DNA of 63,622 nucleotides from Vicinamibacterales bacterium (GCA_050748045.1 JBOGIW010000339.1:1-63622); one strand, 5' to 3'; counted from the stretch's first letter, positions 1 through 40,619 are shown. Made by a program: numbers and translations. The notes: a model not told the origin generated them from the sequence alone.

Positions 1-140
1 GTGCAAGTCCGGCTGCATTCGGCCAGCGATGCATCCCCGCCGGCTGCGTTGCTCCTCCCTCGAATATTCCCGATATTCTCTGTCGTCGCGCCTTGCCGGC
101 GGGGCGCCTCGCCGGCCTCGGTGCGACGCCGGACTTGCAC
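1..140 (-). repeat. Long-hairpin repeat element, copy A. A conserved two-block core sits inside a perfect 13-bp inverted repeat. The element may continue past the window edge.
   Basis: 1-13 GTGCAAGTCCGGC is the exact reverse complement of 128-140 GCCGGACTTGCAC. Internal blocks at 86-110 and 27-54 (read on the minus strand) match blocks 37124-37148 and 37178-37205 of copy B almost base for base. The element ends 9 nt downstream of the proS stop. Confidence 0.6.
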
Positions 141-149
141 CACGGGCTG

Positions 150-1610
150 CTAGTACGACTTGGCGAACCAGGCGTTGGCGGTCGCCGGTCCCCCGCACCG
201 CAGGCACCGCGTCCCCGCGGGCTTCTCGCCCGTGAACGGGATGTTGCGGATCGTGGCCTGCGTCTCGGCTTTGATCTGCGCCTCGCAGTCCGCCGAGCCG
301 CACCAGGGCGAGACGACGAAGCCCGGACGGCCGTCCATGATGGCCTTGAACTCGTCGTAGGCATCGGTCCACGACGTGTGCTCCTCGCGGTACCGGAGCG
401 CGCGATCGAAGAGCGCCTGCTGGATCGCCGTCAGCAGGTCCTCGACGCGCCCGGCCAGGCCGTCGATCGGCGCGAACGACTTCTCACGCGTGTCGCGGCG
501 CGCCAGCACCACCTGCTGCTTCTCGATGTCCTTCGGGCCGATCTCGAGACGCAGCGGCACGCCGCGCAGCTCCCACTCGTTGAACTTCCAGCCCGGCGTC
601 TGCGAGTCGCGGTCGTCGAGCACGACGCGCACGCCGCGGGCGGCGAGCGCGTCGCGAATCTCCTGCGCCCGCGGCAGCACGGTTTCCTTCCAGTTGCCCC
701 TCGAGATCGGCACGATGACCACCTGGTACGGCGCGATCCTCGGCGGCAGGATCAGGCCCCCCTCGTCGCCGTGCGTCATGATCACGCCGCCGATCATGCG
801 CGTGGAGACGCCCCAGGACGTGCCGTACACGAACTGCACGGACTTGTCGCGCGCCTGGAACGTGATGTCGAACACCTTCGCGAAGTTCTGGCCCAGATTG
901 TGCGAGGTGCCCGCCTGCAGCGCGCGGCCGTCGCGCATCAGCGCCTCGATCGAATAGGTCCGCTCGGCGCCGGCGAACTTCTCGCTCGCGGTCTTCTCGC
1001 CGTCGATGACCGGCATCGCGAGGTCGGTCTCGGCGAAGTCCTTGTACACGGCGAGCATTCTGAGCGTTTCCTGCTGCGCCTCGTCCGCCGTCTCGTGCGC
1101 CGTGTGCCCTTCCTGCCAGAGGAACTCGGTGGTCCGCAGGAACAGCCGCGTCACCTTCTCCCAGCGCACGACGTTCGCCCACTGGTTGATCAGGATCGGC
1201 AGATCCCGCCACGACTGGACCCACTTCGCGTACATCGTGCCGATGATCGTCTCGGAGGTCGGCCGCACCGCCAGCGGCTCCTCCAGCTCCTCGGCGCCGC
1301 CCCGCGTGACCCACGCCACCTGCGGCGCGAACCCCTCGACGTGCTCGCTCTCCTTCATCAGGAGGCTCTCGGGAATGAACAGCGGAAAGTACGCGTTCAC
1401 GTGGCCCGTCGCCTTGAAGCGGCGATCGAGCCCCTGCTGCATCAGCTCCCAGATCGCGTACCCATAGGGGCGGATCACCATGCAGCCTTTGACCGGCGAA
1501 TAGTCCGCGAGCTCGGCGCGCCGGACGACGTCGATGTACCAGCGGCCGAAGTCCTGGGACTGAGGCGTGATTTCGGTCGGGAGGTCGGGGATCTCGGTCT
1601 CTTTGGACAT
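150..1610 (-). CDS. proS: Prolyl-tRNA synthetase, short archaeal/eukaryote-like type (~486 aa)
   Basis: ORF 150..1646. The N-terminal region (FGRWYIDVVRRAELADYSPVKGCMVIRPYGYAIWE) and the remaining class IIa motifs are typical of ProRS. The C-terminus carries Cys pairs and ends ...AWFAKSY. I chose the start at MSKETEI (ATG 1610); the upstream ATG at 1646 is also possible. Confidence 0.93.
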   Translation of the reverse strand: MSKETEIPDLPTEITPQSQDFGRWYIDVVRRAELADYSPVKGCMVIRPYGYAIWELMQQGLDRRFKATGHVNAYFPLFIPESLLMKESEHVEGFAPQVAWVTRGGAEELEEPLAVRPTSETIIGTMYAKWVQSWRDLPILINQWANVVRWEKVTRLFLRTTEFLWQEGHTAHETADEAQQETLRMLAVYKDFAETDLAMPVIDGEKTASEKFAGAERTYSIEALMRDGRALQAGTSHNLGQNFAKVFDITFQARDKSVQFVYGTSWGVSTRMIGGVIMTHGDEGGLILPPRIAPYQVVIVPISRGNWKETVLPRAQEIRDALAARGVRVVLDDRDSQTPGWKFNEWELRGVPLRLEIGPKDIEKQQVVLARRDTREKSFAPIDGLAGRVEDLLTAIQQALFDRALRYREEHTSWTDAYDEFKAIMDGRPGFVVSPWCGSADCEAQIKAETQATIRNIPFTGEKPAGTRCLRCGGPATANAWFAKSY

Positions 1611-1658
1611 GGGCGCATCCAGTGTAGCCCGATGCGCCCCGCCCATTCCCGGAAGGGG

Positions 1659-2519: not shown

Positions 2520-5500
2520 CGGACTTCGCGCCACGAGAGGATCCGCACGCCGACCTGGCCGACGCCGTTGTTGAAGTCGTCCGGATCGCCGAACATCTGG
2601 ATCTTGTCGCCGGCGGCGAACGCCACGTGCTGGTCGACGATGAACGGCGCCGTCGCCCGGGCGCCGGCGATCGTCGTCACCTTCTGCTGGTCCGCGTTCG
2701 TGATGCTGCCGCTGTTGTTCGTGTCGTAGGCCGGACCGCCGATGAACGTGAACGCGTAGAGGTTCGCGTCCGGCAGCGCACAGGGCGTGGCCGGCTTGAA
2801 GGTCGTCGTCGTGAAGAACACGATGTCGCCGGCGACGGCCGGGAACGACGTCACCTTCTCGTCGTTGCCCGCCGAGTCCACCCGCTCGAGCATGATGGCC
2901 GCCGTGCGCGTGCCGCTCGCTCCGTTGTCCAGCACGACGAGCAACCGGTACTGCTGGTTCACGCCGTTGCTCGGCAAGAGATCGCTGCCCGTCGCCTGGA
3001 AGAGATACTGGTTCGTGCCGCCGACGTTCACCGTCGCCATCGACGCGAAGAGCGGCTGCGACGTGTTGGACTCGCCCGACGGCAGATTCTGGGTGCTGGC
3101 GTTGTAGAGCTGCACGAGCGCCGCGATCCTCGGCGTGTGCGCCGCGTCCTCCCCGATATCGAAGCGCCAGATCTTTCCGTCGAGATCCCCGATGTACACC
3201 TTGGTCACGAAGCGCGAGTCGGGAGGCCCGGTCGCCACCGGATCGGCTTGCAGCGCGTTCTTCAGCCGCCGGCAGTCGTTGATCGCCTGGCAGTTGTCGA
3301 CTGTCTCCGCGAAGCCGTCGGAGCCGACGCTTCGCGAGTCGAACACCGTGCCGGTCTCGACATCGAGCAGGTAGAAGGTCGTGCCCGCCACGACGCCGCC
3401 CCTGTTGGCCGCCTGCTGCTGCGTGTACGGAAAGGCCCCCGAGCCGGTCAGCACGGCGTACTTCCCGTTGGGGCCGCCAATCTGGCCGACGGCCGGATCC
3501 GACCACGTCTGGCCGACCGTCTTCGCCACCTGGGGCGCCGTGGCGGCGACGTCGCCCCAGGTGCCCAGCGTCACGTCGAAATCGGAGTAGCGCGGGAAGC
3601 TCCACTCGAGCGGGATGCGCGAGGCGTCGCTGAAGTAGGCGAGCACGTTGTCGATGTTGTCGTCGGCCGGCGACACGGCCTGGCTCAGGCTCTCGAGCGT
3701 CACGTCGAAGGTCTGGTAGAAGGTACCCCCGGCGCCCTGGCCGACGACGAGGTAGGTGCGCCACTCCCCGTTGATCTTCACGTCGGCCACCTTCGGCGAG
3801 CTGTCGACGAAGTACCGGAACGCGCCCACCGGCTGACCGAAGGGCAGCGCCTTCAGCTTCGGCAGGAGGTTGAACGGGATGTACGCCCACACTTCGATGC
3901 CGAGCCGTCCGTCGATCGCGCGAAACATGCCGTCGTTGCCGCCGACCCATACGAGGCTGCGGCGGTTCTTGTTCGCGTCGGCGAAGCCCGGGTAATCGCT
4001 GTCCGGCGGCGGATCGAGCGACGGAGCGTCCATCAGGGCTGGCGTCGATCCGACGAAGGCGCCGAGGGGCTGGCTGCGGACGTACTCGATCAGCCCGACG
4101 GTGTCGGTGGTTCGCAGGTACGGCTGCAGCAGTGCGGCGTTGGCGGCCGTGAACGCGACAAGCGTGCCGTCGGGCAGCGACGTATAGATGTTCCGGCTCG
4201 CGGGCTCGGGCGTCGTCGCCACCCAGAGCCGCGTGCCGTCGGCGGAGAACTTGTACCCCGCCGGCTTCGTGGCGTCTACGACCGGCCTGTAGACACGGAA
4301 GGCGCGGAGCTTCCCGTCGAAGCCGGGCAGGGAAAAGCCCGTCGTCAGCATTACGTTCGATCGCTGCGGGATCTTCACGCCGGTCGCCGGGTGATTGATG
4401 ATCGTCAGCGGCAGACCCGATCCGGTGATGTCGCGGGCGTTCTCGAGGTTGACGGAGCCGATAATCGGGCTCGTCACCTGGTGCTCGCTGAAGGGACCGA
4501 TTGGCAGCTCGACGGTCGGATCCGTGTCGAAGTGGCTCTGCTCGGCAAACGCGTGCTGCACCGCGACGTTGACGGCGTTGACGAGCTCCGGCACCGGCCG
4601 GCCAGGAGTCGTCGCGCTGATCATCGCCGGAGTGATATGCGTGAAGCGACCACCGCTGTTCTCGGCAATCTGCCGCAGTTGGGTCGTGTCGCCGAGCGGA
4701 GCGATGGCGATGACGTGAATCGGCACGCGGCGGTTCGCGCCGACGTTGAGGAACTGCAGCGCTTTCGCCGCGGGATCCTCGCCCGTCGTGTCGCCCTCGC
4801 CCCCCCCGACGACGAGGATCGCCACGGTGTTGCGGCACACCGTGTCGGCATTCGCGAGCGTCACGGCTTCGGCCTTGAGGTCGTCGAGCAGGTTGTCGAG
4901 GGGCGCGTCCACGATGCCGGCGCCGTCACGGCCGGCAGGTATCAAGGCGTCAGGCTCGAAGACGCCTTTCCCGAGCGTCGTGAGGATCGTGGCATTCGCA
5001 TTCGGAGCCTCGACCGCCGTCAGCGGCGGCGCCGGGCCGCCGATGGACCCGTTGGTGGAGTTGACGACCGGGCGTGTAATCAGCCACTTGCCCCCGTTGG
5101 ACTCGCTCGAGGCGGCCTGCACCGCGTCGGCCACGTTGACCGGACCTTCGTTCTTCGGACCGGCCCATCTGGGACTGTTCTGGCGCGTCTTGAAGAGCGA
5201 GAACCGCGCGACGGACGCGTTGGCGCTGATCCCTTCGATCAGCCCTCGCCGCGCAATCGCGAGGCGTGTCGTCTCGTCGAACGTCGCGAACCCCGCGTCG
5301 AGATCGGTCACGGTCTCGATCCGATCGGCCGCGAACTTGTCGCCGGCCGAGGCCGCCGGATCGGTGTGAACCAGGTTGATGTAGCGCCGGCGGTACTGCG
5401 TCACCGGGCTCGTCGGCGGGATCCCGATCCCCGGCTCCCACGCGGCGCCGGTCTTTGTGTAGACGTTCGCATCCAGGTACACGTCGTCGGCGTCGCGCTG

Positions 5501-28614: not shown

Positions 28615-28794
28615 CTCAACTCCCCACTCTTCAACTCCCAACTCCCAACTTCCAACGTCCAATCCTCAACTTCCAACTCCCAACTCCCAACTTCCAACTC
28701 CCAATCCTCCAACTCCCAACTCCCAATCCTCGACTCCCAATCTCGACTCCCAATCCTCGACTGCCAATCTCCACTTCCAATCCTCGACTCCCAA
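28615..28794. repeat. About 25 degenerate heptanucleotide tandem repeats (CTCCCAA/CTTCCAA/TCCTCAA on the plus strand) abutting the pilT start codon
   Basis: Read directly from the sequence. The heptad register holds from 28615 to ~28794 with one 8-mer slip. On the pilT-sense strand the units read UUGGGAG, UUGGAAG and UUGAGGA. Confidence 0.9.
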
Positions 28795-28904
28795 AACGAC
28801 TGCGCGTGCGCCACGAGCCTGCTCGCAACCAATGAATGAAAGGGGTGCGTGCTCGGGCCGATTGGCAAGGTAAGACGGCGCGTGAGCGCACAAGCGACGT
28901 TTCC

Positions 28905-28929
28905 TTGGGAGTTGAGAGTTGGGAGTTGA
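28905..28929. repeat. Three inverted copies of the pilT-leader heptad (TTGGGAGTTGAGAGTTGGGAGTTGA), immediately after the pilB stop
   Basis: This is the reverse complement of the 28615-28794 repeat unit. On the mRNA it reads UCAACUCCCAACUCUCAACUCCCAA. Confidence 0.85.
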
Positions 28930-28930
28930 A

Positions 28931-30688
28931 TCATTTCACCGTCTCCCTCACCACTTCCTCGATCGTCGTGAGGCCGTCCTTGATTTTCCGCAGCCCGCTG
29001 TCGCGCAGCGTGATCATCCCGTCCTCGATCGACTTGCGCCGGAGCTCGAGGGCGGATGCGCCGACGAGGATCAGCTCGCGCAGCTCCTCGGTGACCTCCA
29101 TCACCTCGTAGAGGCCGACGCGTCCCTTGTAGCCGGTGTTGTTGCACTTGTCGCAGCCCTTGCCCCGGTTGGGGACCACCGCCTTGGCGTCCTGCGGGCT
29201 GAAGCCGGCCTGCGCGAGCGCCTGTGGCGGCGTGGGGTGGGGTTCCTTGCAGGCGGCGCAGATGCGGCGCACGAGGCGCTGCGCGCAGATGAGCTGGAGG
29301 GAGCTGGCCACCAGGAACGGCTCGATGCCCATGTTCATGAGGCGGTTCACCGTGCTCGGCGCGTCGTTGGTGTGGAGCGTCGAGAGCACGAGGTGGCCCG
29401 TGAGCGCCGCCTTCACGGCGATCTCCGCCGTCTCGAAGTCGCGGATTTCGCCGACGAGGATGATGTTCGGGTCCTGCCGCAGGAAGCTCCGGAGTGCGGC
29501 GGCGAAGTTGAGGCCGATCGACTCGCGCACCTGCACCTGGTTGACGCCCATCAGGTTGAACTCGACCGGGTCTTCGGCGGTCATGATGTTGGTGTCCACC
29601 GTGTTGACCTTCGAGATCGAGGAGTAGAGCGTGTTCGTCTTGCCGCTGCCGGTGGGACCCGTGACGAGCACCATGCCCCACGGCTTCCCGATCGCGGTCT
29701 CGAACTTCGTGAGCGACTCCTGCTCGAAGCCGAGCTTCGTCATGTCGAGCATCAGCTTGTTCTTGTCGAGCAGACGCATGACAATCTTCTCCCCGAAGAG
29801 CGTGGGGAGACACGAGACGCGGAAGTCGATGTCGCGAAGCTCGCCGTTGTCCTGGAAGCGGATCTTGATGCGGCCGTCCTGCGGAAGGCGCTTCTCCGCG
29901 ATGTCGAGCTTCGACATGATCTTGATGCGCGACGTGATCGCGTCCCGGTACTTCATCGGCGGCGCCATGATGTTGTAGAGCAGACCGTCGATGCGGTAGC
30001 GGACGCGCAGCTCCTTCTCGTAGGGCTCGATGTGGATGTCGCTTGCGCCCTTCTGGATCGCCGACATCAGGATCACGTTGACCAGCTTGATGACCGGGGC
30101 TTCCTCGCCCTGCCGCGCGAGCGCCTCGGCGCTGATCTCCTCGAACTCCTCGAGGACCTCGACGTCGCCGGCGTCGGCGAGCATCGGCATCTCGTCGAGC
30201 GCCTTCGACGCCAGCTCGAGCGCGCTCGGCCCCTCGGATTGCGCGGCCGCCGCCTTGCCCGCCTTGCTCCCGTAGTACTTCTCGATGGCCTCGATGACGG
30301 CCGTCTCGGAAGCCACCACCGGCTCGACGTTGTAGCCCGTCATGAACTTGATGTCGTCCATGGCGAACACGTTGGTGGGGTCGGTCATCGCGATCGTGAG
30401 CGTGGCGCCCGCCCGCGACAGCGGCACAATCTGGTACTTCTGGGCCGTCTCGGACGGCACGAGCTTCACCACCGCCGGATCGATCTCGAACTCGCCGAGG
30501 GCGATGGAAGGCACGCCGTACTGCTTGCTGAGCAGCGACGTGATCTCCTCGTCCTTCACGTGCCCGAGCTTCACCAGGTTGAAGCCGAGCTTCCCCCCGT
30601 GCTGGCGCTGATAGTTCAGCGCCTCCTGCAGTTGCTCGGGCGAGATGCGCTTCTCCTTGAGAAGCAGTTCACCGATCCGGACGGCCAT
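28931..30688 (-). CDS. pilB: Type IV pilus assembly ATPase PilB
   Basis: N-terminal T2SS-E N-domain ([24 protein letters not shown]), Walker A GPTGSGKT and a tetracysteine motif (CAACKEP...[12 protein letters not shown]). Start at ATG 30688. Confidence 0.93.
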
Positions 30689-36755: not shown

Positions 36756-37031
36756 TCAGAACGGGGTCAAAGTGAGGGTACGCGTCGACTCAACCTGTGG
36801 GGATGGGCGCCGAGAAAAGGCCGCCATGTCCTTGTGATTGGCCAGCACACCCTCGTCGTAGTCGCTCCGGATGCGCACCATCCTCTGCGCGAGCGCCACG
36901 AGGTCGGCTTCCTTGATGTGGCTCGCAATGTCCTGGCGTGCCTGCGAACGCGCGGCCCCTTGGCCGGCGCCGGAGATCGTGGCGGACAGCACGATGGCAC
37001 AAACGACAACGCACCTGCCTTTCGGACGCAT
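36756..37031 (-). pseudogene. N-terminal remnant (~70 aa of homology) of an M20-family peptidase
   Basis: IKEADLVALAQRMVRIRSDYDEGVLANHKDMAAF aligns with IDRQEAVDLTRALVRIRSEYSEGRLAVHREIAGF of the intact M20 gene at 50612..51937. Similarity then stops, and the frame ends 3 nt from the macB2 stop. Confidence 0.5.
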
Positions 37032-37089
37032 GATGAACGGCGCCTCCCACAACACGAACTGTACCCGACTCGAGCGCGGGTCTAAAGGA

Positions 37090-37238
37090 CCCTGATCGGA
37101 ATAAGGTGGCCAGCTTGGGCGTCGAGGCGCCCGCCCGGCAAGGCGCGAGGAGCGCATACCCGGAGTCTGGAAGCGACGAGCAACGCAGCCCGGCGGGATG
37201 CATCGGCAGCCAAGGTGGCCACCTTATTCCGACCAGGG
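37090..37238 (+). repeat. Long-hairpin repeat element, copy B (29-bp closing stem with 2 mismatches plus the conserved two-block core). Candidate structured ncRNA or palindrome-nested miniature element.
   Basis: 37090-37118 CCCTGATCGGAATAAGGTGGCCAGCTTGG pairs with 37210-37238 CCAAGGTGGCCACCTTATTCCGACCAGGG. Core blocks at 37124-37148 and 37178-37205 are shared with copy A. Confidence 0.6.
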
Positions 37239-37279
37239 TTCTTAGGGACAGATCTCCGCCGATCGGGAAATTGTCACGG

Positions 37280-38824
37280 CTACCGACGCCGCCAGCAGGT
37301 GATGCCGTGATCCTCGGCGGTGCCCGGACAGAAGACCTGCTGAAACGAGCGCTCGAGTCGCTGCAGCAGGAGCGCGTTGGCACGAGGAAGATCTCGTGAG
37401 TGCAGGATCCAGAGGAGCCGATCGCCGGTGAGCGTTTCCTGCAGGGCTCGGGTCAACCGATCGGCATCCGACCTCAGCAAGGCCGCATCGGCCAGCTCGC
37501 GCTCGTCGACCCAGCCCCTGTGCGCTCCCAACGAAGGCGGAAACGAATGGAAGGCCATCGTCCTGCCGCGCTCGCGCGTGAGGTACTCGACTCCGTTGCG
37601 CGTGAAGCCGGTGGCGAGCACGGCGTCCCGCGGCCCGGCGTGCTGAAGCAGGCTCGCCGCCTGGCGGCGCGACGACTGGGCGATGGGAAGCGTGTGCAGC
37701 CTGTACACAGCCGTCGTTGCGAGAGCCATGAGGAGGAGCCATGCCGACACGGCTGTGCCGCCGCGGACGAGCGCGACGCCGCGACCCGCCAGGAGCAGAA
37801 ACAGCGGCAGCGCGATCACGTCGTGCCGGCCGACGAGGAAGATCGGGGTGATGAAAGACAGCGCGGTCGGCACGGCGAGCAGCACGCCGACGACGAGCGC
37901 GATCCTGCGGGCGTCGTCCACGGGCCTTCGAACAAGCGCCGCGCCAATCAGCAGGGCGAAGGCGGCGTACGCGAGCGTCTGCAACCACACCGGCACTGCA
38001 TCCGACCCGGTGCGAATGTACTCGGGCGTGTGCCCGCCGATGCAGAAGCCCGCCAGGCTGAGAAGCGGCGCCAACGCGGGAGGAGTCCCGACCCAGAGGC
38101 GTTCCACCCACTGTGTCGCACCGGAGGTCGTCTGTGTCACGAGCACAGGCAGCCAGGGGAGATACGCCGCTACCACGACCCCCGCGGCCCTGGCCGCCGT
38201 TGCAGCCGGCACTCGCCGGATGAGTACCCAGAGACCGAGCACGACGAGCAGGAAGAGTCCGTAGTTGTGCGTCCAGGTCGCCGCCGCGGTTGCCCCACAA
38301 TAGGCGGCGACGCTGGCGGGGCGGCTCCGCGACATAGCTTCCAGGGCCATCAGAGACGCGAGCACGAACACAATCAGAAGGGCGTAGGGCCGTACCTCCC
38401 GGCTGTAGTGGATGTGCAACGGAGAAACGGCCATCAGCGCGGCGCTCGCCAGCCCGGCACGTGCTCCCCACAGGCGGCACGCGGCGACAAACGTCGCCCA
38501 GACCGCGAGGAGCCCGCAGAGCACGGAGAACAAGCGGAGCGTCCAGGCATCGGCACCCAGCAGGAGCGACCAGCCGCGCAGCAGGAGGAAGTAGAGGGGC
38601 GGAGCGGTATCGCCCGCCAGCTCGGAGAGGAGCGCCCTTGTCGGCTCCATCACCACCAGTGCGGCAAAGGCTTCGTCGAACCATAACTCGGAGCGATCGA
38701 GGCGGAGCAGCCTCAGGCCCAGGGCAACTGCCGACGCAGCAACCAGCAGCGACCACTCCGCCCGTGTCGGGGCGATCGACGCGGACCAAGACGGCTCACC
38801 TGTAGCCACGTCGATCGAGGGCAT
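37280..38824 (-). CDS. GT-C fold glycosyltransferase (PMT_2 / ArnT-like, family 39/83-type)
   Basis: Many TM helices. N-terminal motif LWFDEAFAALVV...APPLYFLLLRGW, typical of the dolichyl/undecaprenyl-phosphate-sugar transferase family. The start is uncertain (ATG 38824 or GTG 38809). Confidence 0.7.
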   Translation of the reverse strand: MPSIDVATGEPSWSASIAPTRAEWSLLVAASAVALGLRLLRLDRSELWFDEAFAALVVMEPTRALLSELAGDTAPPLYFLLLRGWSLLLGADAWTLRLFSVLCGLLAVWATFVAACRLWGARAGLASAALMAVSPLHIHYSREVRPYALLIVFVLASLMALEAMSRSRPASVAAYCGATAAATWTHNYGLFLLVVLGLWVLIRRVPAATAARAAGVVVAAYLPWLPVLVTQTTSGATQWVERLWVGTPPALAPLLSLAGFCIGGHTPEYIRTGSDAVPVWLQTLAYAAFALLIGAALVRRPVDDARRIALVVGVLLAVPTALSFITPIFLVGRHDVIALPLFLLLAGRGVALVRGGTAVSAWLLLMALATTAVYRLHTLPIAQSSRRQAASLLQHAGPRDAVLATGFTRNGVEYLTRERGRTMAFHSFPPSLGAHRGWVDERELADAALLRSDADRLTRALQETLTGDRLLWILHSRDLPRANALLLQRLERSFQQVFCPGTAEDHGITCWRRR

Positions 38825-40619
38825 CCGCTCGCTGCCGTGCCACGTCCAGGGATGCATCCAACGCATAGGCGCGGCGATAGTGCTCGAGTGCGGCCTCGTG
38901 GTCGCCCTGCAGCTCCGCCACCAGGCCGAGATTCACGTGAGCGACAGCCATCGACGGATCGGCGGCAACCGCCCGTTCGAGCAACGTCCTGGCCTCCGCC
39001 AGGCGCCCTTCGCGGCGGCGCACCGTCCCCAGGTTGGCCAGCGCGGGTGCATACTCCGGCGCATCGCCAAGGGCCGCCTCGAACGAGCCGCCCGCCCCGG
39101 AGAGGTCGTCGGCCAGCAGCGCCAGCGTCCCGAGCAGGTTATGGGCCTCCGGATACGCCGGCGCGATGGCCACGGCTGATTCGAGCATCGCTCGCGCAGC
39201 CGCCGTCTGGCCCGATTCGACGAGCGCCGACGCGTAGTTGAACCGGGCCTTGGCACTGGCGGGCGACGCCCGCACCGCGGCAGAAAAGAGCCGTTCCTCC
39301 GACGACCAGTCTCGGTTGCGCGCCAGCGCTCCCGCCGTGTGAGCGCCGAGCAGCACGATGATGAACCATGCGAGGACGATCTTCATCCGCGGACCGCCGA
39401 TGCCGTGCAGCCGAACGAGCCAGAGACCAGAGAGCAGGCAGAGCGCAGCGGACGGCAGATACAGGATGCGCTCGGCCATGATCGTCCCGATCGGCACGAT
39501 CAGGTTCGACACCGGCAGCAGCAGCACGGCAAACGCCCCAGCGAGCAGGATCGTTCGCGGCACGCGCCGTTCGAGCCGCGCGAGCAGCACAACGGCGCCC
39601 CCGAGCGCCGCCGCGACGGCGATGGCTCTGGGATCGGCAGCCGTTCGTACGAGCGGGATCTGGTCGTAGGCATAGTCGGCACTGAGCGGGTACGGCAGGA
39701 TGAACAGCCCGACGTACTTGATCGCCACCCACAACGCCGTGAGGAGGCGCGCGGCGGGCTCGGCGGTCACCAGGGGATTCTCGATGTAGCGGACGTGCGA
39801 GCCCGTGGCGAAGACGCCCCCGGCTGCCGCATACCGCAGCGCACTATAGCCTGCCGCACCGATGAGCAACGCTGCGTACAGCGACCAGCGCTGCCGGAGC
39901 AGCTCACGCGCGTCGTGCGTGAACGTGCGACGCCTGACGTGCATCGCCAGGTCGGAGAACACCAGCAACGCCGGGAACGCCGCCGCGTTCTCCTTCGCCA
40001 GGAGGCCCCCGGCGAACAGGAGCGTGACCGCTGCCGTCCGCGATCGGCGCGGCTCGCGCGAAGCGATCGCCAGCCGCCATGCAAGCAGCACGAACGACGC
40101 CGCCAGGAGATCGGCTCGTCCGAAGACCGGCGACACCGCTTCGGTGTGGACCGCATGCACCGCGAACAGCGCGGCACCTGCGGTAGCCGGCCACCAGTCG
40201 AGCAGACGGCGACCGATCGACCACACAAGCAGCGTGTTCACGGCGTGCAGTCCGACGTTGACGGCATGATAGGAGAACGGCGCCAGGCCGGACACGGCGT
40301 AATTGACCGCAAGCGTGTAGACAGCGAGCGGGCGGTACCACTCGACCTGCCCGTGGGTGACGGCGCCGTGCTGAAAGGCCAGCAGTGGATCCAGCGAGCG
40401 AACCAGGTCGTTTCGAACGACCTGGGCGACATCGTCGTAGACGAACGCGTTCGACAGGCCGTTGAGGTACGGGATCGTCGCCAGGAGCGCCAGGACTATC
40501 GCGGCATGCGCAGCGCGAGATCCGTGTAGAGCGGAGCGTGCCCGACCAGCGAGTCGATCGCCACCGACTGGCCGGCCCCCTGCGCGCGGTCTCCGACCAC
40601 GATGCCGAAGGAGATCCAT
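38796..40619 (-). CDS. Membrane PMT/TMTC-like protein with C-terminal TPR repeats
   Basis: N-terminal multi-TM region with IPYLNGLSNAFVYDDVAQVVRN and HAVNVGLHAVNTLLVW. The C-terminal ~200 aa are TPR repeats. The start is uncertain because third-position GC in this frame is low upstream of ~40500. Confidence 0.7.
   Translation of the reverse strand: MDLLRHRGRRPRAGGRPVGGDRLAGRARSALHGSRAAHAAIVLALLATIPYLNGLSNAFVYDDVAQVVRNDLVRSLDPLLAFQHGAVTHGQVEWYRPLAVYTLAVNYAVSGLAPFSYHAVNVGLHAVNTLLVWSIGRRLLDWWPATAGAALFAVHAVHTEAVSPVFGRADLLAASFVLLAWRLAIASREPRRSRTAAVTLLFAGGLLAKENAAAFPALLVFSDLAMHVRRRTFTHDARELLRQRWSLYAALLIGAAGYSALRYAAAGGVFATGSHVRYIENPLVTAEPAARLLTALWVAIKYVGLFILPYPLSADYAYDQIPLVRTAADPRAIAVAAALGGAVVLLARLERRVPRTILLAGAFAVLLLPVSNLIVPIGTIMAERILYLPSAALCLLSGLWLVRLHGIGGPRMKIVLAWFIIVLLGAHTAGALARNRDWSSEERLFSAAVRASPASAKARFNYASALVESGQTAAARAMLESAVAIAPAYPEAHNLLGTLALLADDLSGAGGSFEAALGDAPEYAPALANLGTVRRREGRLAEARTLLERAVAADPSMAVAHVNLGLVAELQGDHEAALEHYRRAYALDASLDVARQRADALDRRGYR

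What the first reader, a model, noticed from the sequence alone, without database searches (positions are those of the whole stretch)
37090..37238. Two copies of a ~140-150 nt hairpin element: conserved internal blocks, unrelated but fully complementary outer stems
Copy B (plus strand, 37090-37238) and copy A (minus strand, 140-1) share two near-identical internal blocks.
- The blocks are GAGGCGCCC(C)GCC(C)GGCAAGGCGCGA and GAGCAACGCAGCC(C)GGCGGG(G)ATGCATCG. They pair with each other through CCCGCC/GGCGGG.
- The closing stems are unrelated in sequence. Copy B has 29 bp with 2 mismatches; copy A has a perfect 13 bp (GTGCAAGTCCGGC/GCCGGACTTGCAC).
- The ~30-nt apical segments are also unrelated.
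- Copy A carries an extra pair of mutually complementary inserts (GGCCGG on the 5-prime side, CTGGCC on the 3-prime side) that simply lengthens the helix.

Conserved loops combined with stems that change sequence while keeping their pairing is the signature of a structured RNA family. The alternative is a small non-autonomous element that lands inside pre-existing palindromes; the copy B arms contain the self-complementary AAGGTGGCCACCTT. I could not place it in any RNA family I know.
Basis: seen in the sequence. Interest (0 to 1): 0.75.

Follow-up and report, generated by a model that had tools for sequence, protein, structure and literature searches.

The report
Hairpin mini-transposons sharing a structured core
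The two hairpins are copies of a widespread ~163-base non-coding mobile element (a MITE) that inserts at TA within CTAG, and that carries an undescribed, strand-specific folded core which is conserved across many bacterial phyla and sits between ends borrowed from unrelated transposons.

Summary
Both copies exist, but they are slightly longer than reported: B is 37083-37244 (+), and A is 152-1 (-), cut by the window edge. A covariance model finds only these two copies in the window (75 and 91 bits; next best 14.6).

They are neither an Rfam family nor a stand-alone RNA gene. They belong to a multi-copy family of about 163 nt, bounded by TA inside CTAG.
- An exact-core scan found at least 119 loci whose record titles name about a dozen phyla.
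- Vicinamibacterales relatives lack copy A after proS, so it is an insertion. Its end supplies the proS TAG stop codon.

The outer 20-35 nt of each arm are transposon ends.
- Copy A's ends match an IS1182-like IS: 18 full-length copies, all encoding the transposase.
- A sister subfamily's ends match IS630-family ISs.
- Copy B's parent IS was not found.

The inner 95-125 nt is absent from both ISs and is shared by all subfamilies.
- It covaries strongly.
- It is strand-asymmetric. G:T outnumbers A:C by 224 to 74, A/G outnumbers C/T by 153 to 21, and the core strand folds better in 56 of 58 elements.
- It is therefore selected as a single strand, either RNA or ssDNA.

Its function is unknown, and its orientation relative to neighbouring genes shows no sense bias. 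I classify it as a new variant of a known kind (MITE).

The parts
37083..37244 (+). Copy B, complete element (162 nt) including both flanking TA dinucleotides. The context is C(37082)-TA...TA-G(37245). It belongs to the c-type end subfamily (TAAAGGACCCTGATCGGAATAAGG...).
   Evidence: inverted repeat I1; 88% identical to the L057 element.
37121..37206 (+). Copy B structured core: the match to covariance model R1.
   Evidence: 75.1 bits, E 9e-17. The apical hairpin is slightly decayed.
37137..37148 (+). Copy B 5' conserved block, GGCAAGGCGCGA.
37178..37190 (+). Copy B 3' conserved block, GAGCAACGCAGCC.
1..152 (-). Copy A, cut by the window edge. It runs on the minus strand from TA at 152-151 to base 1, and about 12 nt of the 3' arm are missing. 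Its b-type end, TAGCAGCCCGTGGTGCAAG, differs by 1 mismatch from the IS1182-like IS terminus.
   Evidence: 89% identical to L069 3279-3441.
26..113 (-). Copy A structured core: the match to covariance model R1.
   Evidence: 91.4 bits, E 8e-21.
150..152 (-). TAG stop codon of proS. Its TA is the element's flanking TA, and its G is the first base of the element's terminal repeat.
   Evidence: Relatives end proS with TGA or TAA and have no element there.
150..1646 (-). Prolyl-tRNA synthetase gene, the host gene that abuts copy A. It is not part of the element.
   Evidence: tRNA-synt_2b, HGTP_anticodon, ProRS-C_1.
37280..38866 (-). PMT_2-family glycosyltransferase gene. It ends 35 nt from copy B's 3' flanking TA (37245-37279 lie between). 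It is context, not part of the element.

Best explanation
Both hairpins are copies of a non-autonomous foldback transposable element (a MITE) of about 163 nt.

**Ends (shown).** The outermost 20-35 nt of each arm are terminal inverted repeats taken from autonomous insertion sequences.
- These ISs insert at the TA of 5'-CTAG-3', so the element is flanked by TA.
- Because the repeats begin with G or A, the element can replace or supply a TAG/TAA stop codon, as copy A does for proS.
- Copy A carries the ends of an IS1182-like DDE element.
- A sister subfamily carries IS630-family ends.
- Copy B's parent IS was not found.

**Mobilisation (inferred).** The cognate transposases act in trans.

**Core (shown).** Between the ends lies a 95-125-nt module that the parent ISs do not contain and that all subfamilies share.
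- The consensus is GGC-AAG-GCG-C-GA-N-GA-S ... 4-6 bp hairpin ... S'-GA-N'-GA-G-CAA-CGC-A-GCC, set inside covarying helices.
- The module keeps its pairing through compensatory changes.
- It keeps G.U and tandem G.A pairs on one strand only. It is therefore under selection as a folded single strand.

**Function (inferred).** Most likely the module acts as RNA when the element is transcribed by read-through.
- The near-perfect ~30-bp duplex formed by the terminal repeats is a natural RNase III substrate. Cleavage there would release a stable GA-rich hairpin able to bind a conserved host factor.
- This could make the element better tolerated or better propagated.
- A single-stranded DNA role is the main alternative.
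For: **Family and copy number**
By their record titles the hits fall in about a dozen phyla, and several genomes hold 2-5 copies.
- There are two copies in this window.

**Ends**
- 41 elements have TA...TA ends. Median length is 163 nt (interquartile range 163-164). The flanking bases are C and G in 27 of 41.
- Tandem elements share one CTAG.

**Insertion**
- The four closest proS relatives (74-85% identity, Vicinamibacterales/Acidobacteriota) have no element and end in TGA or TAA.

**Parent ISs**
- The b-type terminus bounds 18 elements of 1.36-1.54 kb. All 18 encode a DUF772+DDE_Tnp_1 transposase whose best NCBIfam match is IS1182.
- In 80 loci encoding IS630-family transposases (query 273.8 bits, cut-off 100), most of the 1.15-1.2-kb ISs, those where clear inverted ends could be found, end in TA-GTGTCCTG... 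These are the a-type MITE ends.
- IS630-family elements duplicate TA. PMC2170065 cites an IS630 preference for the TA in CTAG.
- No core lies inside either IS.
- No protein family recurs near the elements.

**Structure**
- Core-selected set: 88.1% of cells paired against 66.5% shuffled, 0 of 500 shuffles as high. The N/N' pair is CG 51, GC 40, UA 22, AU 6, with 1 broken.
- Set selected by terminus, not by core: 90.9% paired against 69.9% shuffled, and 19 of 23 pairs show compensatory change.

**Strand asymmetry**
- The core strand folds on average 12.7 kcal/mol better, in 56 of 58 elements.
- In the arms outside the search pattern, G:T is 224 against A:C 74, and A/G is 153 against C/T 21.
- The asymmetry holds in three subgroups. 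It is strongest in the inner 22 positions and weaker in the terminal-repeat zone.
Against: - **Copy B's parent IS.** No IS with c-type ends was found in the DNA held, so for copy B the transposase link is by analogy.
- **No mobility or empty-site evidence.** Mobility was not observed. No precise empty site was recovered.
- **No expression data.** I have no evidence that the element is transcribed.
- **Orientation argues against a simple cis role in mRNA.** The core orientation shows no sense bias relative to flanking genes. Crude ORF calls give (-,-) 13 versus (+,+) 5.
- **No signals detected.** No promoter-like or terminator-like site was found.
- **No known single-stranded step.** DDE cut-and-paste transposition has none that would explain strand-specific selection.
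- **Related copies.** Copies are related by descent, so the asymmetry counts are not independent events.
- **Taxon labels.** Many taxon assignments come from MAG bins.
Confidence: 0.7

Rival explanations
1. The conserved core works as single-stranded DNA, not RNA. On this reading a hairpin extruded from one DNA strand, for example on the lagging-strand template, would be recognised by a host or transposon protein. Known analogues are single-strand initiation sites, ssoA-type origins, integron attC sites and REP/RAYT substrates. The hairpin would help the element replicate, excise or be retained.
For: - The strand-specific G:T and G:A enrichment is equally compatible with ssDNA.
- There is no sense bias relative to host transcription.
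- No promoter was found.
- 'Doublet' forms in Pseudomonas, Steroidobacteraceae and Verrucomicrobiota put one sense core on each DNA strand.
Against: - Core orientation shows no bias relative to local GC skew, 48 versus 59. This is a weak test.
- The identified parent ISs encode DDE transposases. From established knowledge of IS630/Tc1 elements, these act on double-stranded DNA (PMC2170065).
- No HUH or tyrosine recombinase recurs nearby.
Confidence: 0.2
2. This is the first reader's main reading: a family of stand-alone structured non-coding RNA genes. On this view the flanking TA/CTAG and the long outer stem belong to the RNA, not to a mobile element.
For: - Loops are conserved, helices covary, and the fold is strand-specific.
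- Length is tightly constrained to 163 nt across subfamilies.
- There is no Rfam match.
Against: - The outer arms are identical to the termini of transposase-encoding ISs.
- Elements are multi-copy and sit in unrelated contexts.
- The element is absent from the orthologous proS site in relatives.
- Orientation relative to genes is random, and no promoter or terminator was found.
Confidence: 0.07
3. There is no selection on structure. On this view arm complementarity only reflects foldback origin from one IS end plus recent amplification, and the one-sided mismatches are inherited from a few master copies.
For: - Copies are related by descent, so cells are not independent.
- The outer 30 bp are near-perfect, as expected of terminal repeats.
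Against: - Compensatory changes occur at 19 of 23 pairs in a set chosen by terminus, not by core.
- The G:T over A:C and A/G over C/T excess holds in three subgroups with different arms.
- The same core sits between ends of two different transposase families and in other backbones.
- The core is near-invariant across genomes labelled as about a dozen phyla while the adjacent stems vary.
Confidence: 0.05
4. The ~90-nt core hairpin is itself the mobile unit. On this view it inserts into the loops of pre-existing hairpins or MITEs, which would explain why it appears inside several unrelated backbones.
For: - The same core lies inside a-, b- and c-type TA elements, inside doublets ending in GGGG..., and inside betaproteobacterial elements with other inverted repeats.
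- A b-type hairpin without the core exists (L057 4574-4650).
Against: - There are no recognisable boundaries or duplications around the core.
- The L057 case reads as an internal deletion.
- All TA-type subfamilies share one overall length.
- They also share a second loop, GCACCGAG/CGAATGC, outside the core. This points to a common ~125-nt scaffold whose ends were exchanged.
Confidence: 0.08

Closest known systems
IS630/Tc1-mariner-derived MITEs. Examples recalled from memory: pneumococcal RUP, Neisseria Correia/NEMIS elements, plant Stowaway.
   Same: - Small, non-coding and multi-copy.
- Terminal inverted repeats match an autonomous IS.
- Flanked by TA.
- Foldback hairpin potential.
- Often located at gene ends.
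- The a-type sister subfamily has IS630-family ends.
   Different: - The two window copies do not carry IS630 ends. Copy A has IS1182-like ends and copy B's are unassigned.
- The family carries a strand-specific, covarying core that is conserved across phyla, absent from the parent ISs, and shared with MITEs of another transposase family.
- Length is fixed at about 163 nt across subfamilies.
IS1182/IS5-superfamily insertion sequences and their MITEs (for example MITEPsy1 from ISPsy2, PMC3189936)
   Same: - Copy A's terminus, TAGCAGCCCGTGGTGCAAG, matches with 1 mismatch the ends of 1.36-1.54-kb ISs that encode DUF772+DDE_Tnp_1 transposases.
- The target is CTAG.
   Different: - The transposase scores below NCBIfam's IS1182 cut-off (156.9 versus 270), so it is IS1182-like and not a certified member.
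- MITEPsy1 duplicates 4 nt (CTAG or YTAA). Here the c-type ends (CTAA...TTAG) fit a 2-nt TA duplication.
- MITEPsy1 is reported as a 100-nt element with 18-nt terminal repeats, and no conserved structured core is described for it (PMC3189936). I did not compare its sequence with the core.
REP / REPIN elements mobilised by RAYT (Y1 HUH) transposases
   Same: - Intergenic, multi-copy hairpins.
- Doublet forms with two inverted units exist in some lineages.
- The structure is relevant as a single strand.
   Different: - No GTAG or CGTC head.
- The units are 163 nt, not 20-40 nt.
- The ends match DDE-transposase ISs.
- No RAYT-like gene recurs nearby.
TIMEs (Tn3-derived MITEs, PMC4133298), BRE (betaproteobacterial repeat, PMC3110155) and R178 of P. 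fluorescens (PMC2718517)
   Same: - Small intergenic repeats of similar size in Pseudomonas or Betaproteobacteria.
- They are predicted to fold as RNA.
- BRE is transcribed.
   Different: - The TIME in pDC3000A has Tn3-type GGGG ends and no core.
- The BRE sequence is unrelated.
- No R178 sequence was available, so identity with the 99-nt Pseudomonas hairpin could not be tested.

Membership tests
MITE (non-autonomous DDE-transposon derivative) | Short, with no coding capacity | tested here: met
   The elements are 162-166 nt and no transposase gene recurs nearby.
MITE (non-autonomous DDE-transposon derivative) | Terminal inverted repeats that match those of an autonomous IS | tested here: met
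   Copy A / b-type: the terminus is identical at 18 of 19 positions to the ends of 18 transposase-encoding ISs. a-type: it matches IS630-family ends. Copy B / c-type: no parent was found, so the feature is met for the family and for copy A and is inconclusive for copy B.
MITE (non-autonomous DDE-transposon derivative) | Target-site duplication | tested here: inconclusive
   TA lies at both ends within C...G in 27 of 41 elements, and adjacent elements share one TA. No matched empty site was recovered to prove duplication.
MITE (non-autonomous DDE-transposon derivative) | Multi-copy, with presence/absence polymorphism | tested here: met
   There are 2-5 copies in several genomes within a capped sample. 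The element is absent after proS in four relatives.
MITE (non-autonomous DDE-transposon derivative) | Mobilised in trans by the cognate transposase | not testable with these tools
   This needs a transposition assay.
IS630 family (parent of the a-type subfamily) | Transposase passes the curated family model; the IS ends are flanked by TA | tested here: met
   NCBIfam IS630 gives 273.8 bits against a cut-off of 100, and Pfam finds DDE_3 plus HTH domains. Most of the 80 loci show TA-flanked ends.
IS1182 family (parent of copy A's subfamily) | Transposase passes the curated family model | tested here: not met
   IS1182 is the best hit at 156.9 bits, below the cut-off of 270. Pfam DUF772 and DDE_Tnp_1 both pass. 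I therefore call it IS1182-like.
Any Rfam 15 RNA family | Match at or above the family's gathering score | tested here: not met
   There were 0 hits in the window and none on the elements in 10 related loci. At E up to 10 the only hits were a generic long-hairpin match to MIR918 (36 bits against a gathering score of 268) and a chance-level DUF3085 match (16.9 bits, E 1.2).
REP/REPIN-RAYT | A 20-40-nt palindrome with a GTAG or CGTC head, associated with a RAYT gene | tested here: not met
   The ends are TA-G/A... and match DDE-transposase ISs. No gene family recurs nearby.
TIME (Tn3-derived MITE) | 38-bp Tn3-type GGGG inverted repeats, 5-bp direct repeats, about 262 bp | tested here: not met
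   The window copies have TA ends and are 163 nt. The reference TIME in pDC3000A has no core.
Integron attC site | R''(RYYYAAC)/R'(GTTRRRY) boxes at the hairpin base, located in cassette arrays | tested here: not met
   By inspection, the conserved bases sit in the middle of the hairpin, the ends have no AAC/GTT boxes, and there is no array.

The most novel reading that the evidence does not exclude
The inner ~95-125-nt hairpin may be a functional structured RNA (or ssDNA) module in its own right, for example a protein-binding or even catalytic fold. On this reading it has repeatedly become the cargo of miniature transposons built from the ends of unrelated transposase families (IS630, IS1182-like and others). 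It would then be the reason these elements have spread through genomes labelled as about a dozen bacterial phyla. That would make it a 'hitch-hiking RNA' class with no Rfam entry and no description in the literature I searched.
Probability: 0.35. Interest if true: 0.85.

Novelty: new variant of a known kind. Interest (0 to 1): 0.62.

Why it matters
MITEs are usually seen as deletion derivatives whose only functional parts are their terminal repeats. Here the part under the strongest and oldest constraint is an internal, strand-specific fold.
- The parent insertion sequences lack it.
- Elements carrying the ends of at least two unrelated transposase families share it.
- By the record titles, it occurs in about a dozen phyla, from Pseudomonas isolates to genomes labelled Acidobacteriota, Binatia, Myxococcota and Verrucomicrobiota.

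If the fold is a working RNA, or a single-stranded DNA signal, it would be a new widespread structured motif. It would also be a concrete case of a nucleic-acid 'cargo' that promotes or rides on miniature transposons.

This is testable in culturable Pseudomonas carriers. In practice the element also needs annotating:
- it supplies stop codons, as with proS here;
- it creates long hairpins at gene ends;
- it regenerates CTAG targets that attract further insertions.

Tried and rejected
**RNA family searches**
- Rfam at gathering thresholds on the window and on 10 loci found nothing at the elements.
- A permissive scan gave only a generic hairpin match to MIR918 and a chance-level DUF3085 match (16.9 bits, E 1.2).

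**Literature searches**
- Searches by core sequence and by terminus sequence found nothing relevant.
- Keyword searches for MITEs, IS630 and Acidobacteria did not describe this element.

**Named elements compared**
- TIMEs: rejected. The pDC3000A TIME has other ends and no core. A BLAST of the Pseudomonas doublet against plasmids gave only 4 unannotated hits.
- BRE of Bordetella: a different sequence.
- R178/R200 of P. fluorescens: no sequence was available, so this was left untested.

**Other collections**
- E. coli genomes: no match.
- Viral contigs: no match.

**Attempts to place the window or find an empty site**
- The window's genome was not found in genome contigs or metagenome contigs.
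- It was not found by exact ProRS look-up either, so copy A could not be completed.
- A search for an empty site of copy B in metagenomes gave no hit.

**Orientation and signal tests**
- Orientation relative to local GC skew was uninformative: 48 versus 59, and the window's skew is flat.
- The promoter/terminator scan found nothing.

**Parent IS for copy B**
- I searched all held loci for an IS with c-type ends and found only MITE-sized pairs.

**A correction to my own notes**
- I first thought copy B also abuts a stop codon. This was wrong: ORF 37242-38789 is spurious, and the real PMT_2 gene ends at 37280.

**Motifs considered by eye and not matched**
- K-turn, hammerhead, hairpin-ribozyme, SRP and attC resemblances were all considered and none fitted.

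Full report
**1. The observation**

Copy B (plus strand) and copy A (minus strand, at the window's start) are both present, and both carry the two quoted blocks.
- Each copy folds into a long irregular hairpin far more stable than shuffled controls: B -98 kcal/mol (z -9.8) and A -89 kcal/mol (z -8.0).
- I built a covariance model (R1: 88 positions, 23 pairs) from 120 family members and ran it over the whole window without filters. It finds exactly these two places, at 91.4 and 75.1 bits. The next hit scores 14.6 bits.
- The two copies differ by compensatory double substitutions in the helix next to the 5' block and at the N/N' pair.

The true limits are wider than reported.
- B runs from TA 37083-84 to TA 37243-44 (162 nt), inside C...G.
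- A starts at TA 152-151 and is cut by the window edge.

**2. It is a large family and is not in Rfam**

- Rfam 15 gives no hit at gathering thresholds, either in the window or on the elements in ten related loci.
- A permissive scan returns only a generic long-hairpin match to a plant miRNA model and a chance-level DUF3085 match (16.9 bits, E 1.2).
- I scanned one genome per species with GGCAAGGCGCGA-N20-50-GAGCAACGCAGCC.
  - By their record titles the hits include Acidobacteriota/Vicinamibacterales, Binatia, Myxococcota, Desulfobacterota, Pseudomonas isolates and other Gammaproteobacteria, and Betaproteobacteria.
  - They also include Verrucomicrobiota, Actinomycetota, Planctomycetota, Bacteroidota, Methylomirabilota, Fibrobacteria and Eisenbacteria.
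  - Many of these are MAG bins, so the taxon labels carry some uncertainty.
  - Several genomes hold 2-5 copies within this capped sample.
- None was found in 2.9 million viral contigs or in E. coli.
- No protein family recurs within 4 kb of the elements.

**3. Anatomy**

- Of the 124 core matches, 41 could be bounded by a TA on each side with at least 8 of 10 terminal bases paired. These have a median length of 163 nt (interquartile range 163-164). The flanking bases are C and G in 27 of 41, so the ends lie inside CTAG.
- Adjacent elements share one CTAG.
- Three end types occur:
  - a: TA-GTGTCCTGTC...
  - b: TA-GCAGCCCGTGGTGAAAGT... (copy A)
  - c: TA-AGGGCCCG... / TA-AAGGACCCTGATCGGAATAAGG... 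(copy B)
- Each window copy has near-full-length relatives in other genomes. B is 88% identical to an element in L057, and A is 89% identical to one in L069.
- Inside the ends, all types share one scaffold: often a GCACCGAG/CGAATGC internal loop, then a covarying helix, then the core.
  - The core reads GGC-AAG-GCG-C-GA-N-GA-S ... 4-6 bp hairpin with a loop like CGGGA ... S'-GA-N'-GA-G-CAA-CGC-A-GCC.
  - N/N' and S/S' are Watson-Crick pairs that covary. They flank two tandem G.A/A.G pairs.

**4. It is an insertion**

- Copy A begins at the TAG stop codon of a prolyl-tRNA synthetase gene.
- The four closest ProRS relatives (74-85% identity; three labelled Vicinamibacterales or Acidobacteriota MAGs, one a complete chromosome) end proS with TGA or TAA and have no element downstream.
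- The window genome is therefore a Vicinamibacterales-like acidobacterium in which the element has been added.
  - The element supplies the present stop codon.
  - The target is C-TA-G, and the terminal repeat begins with G, so TAG is regenerated.
- Copy B lies between the convergent ends of a MacB-like permease gene and a PMT_2 glycosyltransferase gene, 35 nt from the latter's stop.
- My earlier idea that copy B also abuts a stop codon rested on a spurious ORF, and I withdraw it.

**5. The ends are transposon ends from different transposase families**

b-type ends (copy A):
- Among 113 new loci, 18 elements of 1.36-1.54 kb are bounded by this terminus in inverted orientation.
  - All 18 encode relatives (50-61% identity) of one transposase. 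Pfam finds DUF772 plus DDE_Tnp_1.
  - The best NCBIfam match is IS1182, but at 156.9 bits it falls below the curated cut-off of 270, so I call it IS1182-like.
- About 36 MITEs of 163-166 nt carry the same ends.

a-type ends:
- In L231, an IS630-family IS directly abuts this IS and shares its TAG. Its transposase scores 273.8 bits on NCBIfam IS630 (cut-off 100). Its ends are TA-GTGTCCTGT....
- I collected 80 loci encoding relatives of this IS630-family transposase. In most of them, those where clear inverted ends could be found, the IS is 1.15-1.2 kb and ends in TA-GTGTCCTG(A/T)...GAAGTTCG..., flanked by C and G. These are the a-type MITE ends.
- IS630-family elements insert at TA and duplicate it. 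The ISY100 paper cites a preference of IS630 for the TA in CTAG (PMC2170065).

The core is not in the ISs:
- Neither IS contains the core.
- The single core hit among the IS630 loci belongs to a b-type MITE that abuts the IS end.

c-type ends (copy B):
- No IS with c-type ends turned up in the DNA held, and my genome scans were exhausted.

**6. The core is selected as a single strand**

Covariation:
- In the core-selected alignment, 88.1% of cells pair against 66.5% in shuffles, with 0 of 500 shuffles as high. Sliding the partners drops pairing to 27-46%.
- In a set chosen by terminus rather than by core, 90.9% pair against 69.9%, and 19 of 23 pairs show compensatory change. This alignment was fitted to the model, which leans it towards the structure.
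- In that set, G25/C78 changes to A/T and C26/G77 changes to T/A. This supports a continuous helix through the tandem G.A pairs.

Strand asymmetry:
- The core strand folds better than its complement in 56 of 58 elements, by 12.7 kcal/mol on average.
- In the arms outside the search pattern, G:T outnumbers A:C by 224 to 74, and A/G outnumbers C/T by 153 to 21.
- The bias holds in three subgroups with different arms. It is strongest in the 22 positions next to the core and weaker in the outer, near-perfect terminal-repeat zone.

Variant forms:
- About ten b-type 164-nt MITEs carry a diverged 'type 2' core (...CAAGGCGC-stem...GCAACGCAG...) with the same strand preference.
- Some elements have extra small hairpins on both arms.
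- In Pseudomonas, Steroidobacteraceae and Verrucomicrobiota the module occurs as a doublet inside a longer outer stem. The doublet is a sense hairpin, then CCTWYGG, then an antisense and more degenerate hairpin.
- In Betaproteobacteria the core sits in ~230-nt elements with yet other inverted repeats.

**7. What the core does is not shown**

- Its orientation shows no sense bias relative to neighbouring genes. Crude ORF calls give (-,-) 13, (+,+) 5, convergent 8 and divergent 5.
- It shows no bias relative to local GC skew, 48 versus 59.
- No sigma-70-like promoter or intrinsic terminator is present.

My preferred reading is as follows.
- Read-through transcripts of sense-oriented copies fold.
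- The ~30-bp terminal-repeat duplex is processed, with RNase III as the obvious candidate. This draws on established knowledge of Correia elements.
- A stable GA-rich hairpin is left that binds a conserved host factor. This benefits the element's tolerance or spread.

The main rival is a single-stranded DNA role. The data do not separate the two.

**8. Comparison with known elements**

- The element has the defining features of a MITE. They are met for the family and for copy A. For copy B the parent IS is missing, and the target duplication is not proven by an empty site.
- It is not a TIME, not BRE, not REP/REPIN, not attC, and not any Rfam family.
- P. fluorescens R178 (101 bp) could correspond to the 99-nt Pseudomonas hairpin, but no sequence was available.

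What appears new:
- an internal structured module that is strand-specific, covarying and conserved across phyla;
- the parent ISs lack it;
- MITEs built on the ends of at least two unrelated transposase families share it, at a fixed overall length of about 163 nt.

Text searches by core and terminus sequences found no description of it.

**9. Verdict**

- Novelty: a new variant of a known kind.

Noticed in passing
window 28630-28935: An intergenic stretch holds tandem heptamer-like repeats (CAACTCC/CAACTTC)n. An inverted partner, TTGGGAGTTGAGAGTTGGGAGTTGAA, lies about 200 nt downstream. Similar CCCAAGA/CCCAAGT heptamer runs follow proS in relative L124.
   Followed up: no
L231 1427-5897: This is an insertion hot spot. 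Two IS1182-like ISs of 1,541 bp lie in direct orientation, separated by a 203-nt spacer (2968-3170). The second IS is directly abutted by an IS630-family IS, and these two share one TAG. Both IS families regenerate and re-use CTAG targets. L347 shows an IS630 end abutting a b-type MITE in the same way.
   Followed up: partly
L122 3018-3135: A different CTAG-bounded hairpin element of about 115 nt, without the GGCAAGG core, lies downstream of proS in an Acidobacteriota relative. Other foldback MITE families therefore use the same target.
   Followed up: no
L002 2026-2292; L023 5017-5288; L096 6268-6545: These are 'doublet' forms of 260-290 nt: an outer stem enclosing a sense-core hairpin, a conserved CCTWYGG linker, and a second hairpin with a degenerate antisense core. 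In Pseudomonas and Steroidobacteraceae the outer ends begin GGGG..., unlike the TA-type ends. Their parent transposon is unknown.
   Followed up: partly
L226 2589-2752; L243 4816-4980; L254 2958-3122; L202, L256, L267: These b-type 164-nt MITEs carry a diverged 'type 2' core (...CAAGGCGC-6/7 bp stem-GGAG...GAGGAT-stem-GCAACGCAG...). Model R1 misses them, so the family is broader than the exact-core scan shows.
   Followed up: partly
L010, L110, L113 (near the core); L057 4574-4650: Two kinds of structural variant were seen. In the first, extra small hairpins (CCCCAGCGCGGCTGCCGCGCTGGGG) sit on both arms beside the core. The second is a ~75-nt derivative that keeps the b-type ends and the GCACCGAG/CGAATGC loop but lacks the core.
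   Followed up: no
window 36756-37032 (-): A short ORF (MRPKGRCVVV..., preceded by GGGAGG) starts 51 nt from copy B's 5' flanking TA. It overlaps the region just after the convergent MacB-like gene. It may be a small or truncated gene; I did not verify it.
   Followed up: no
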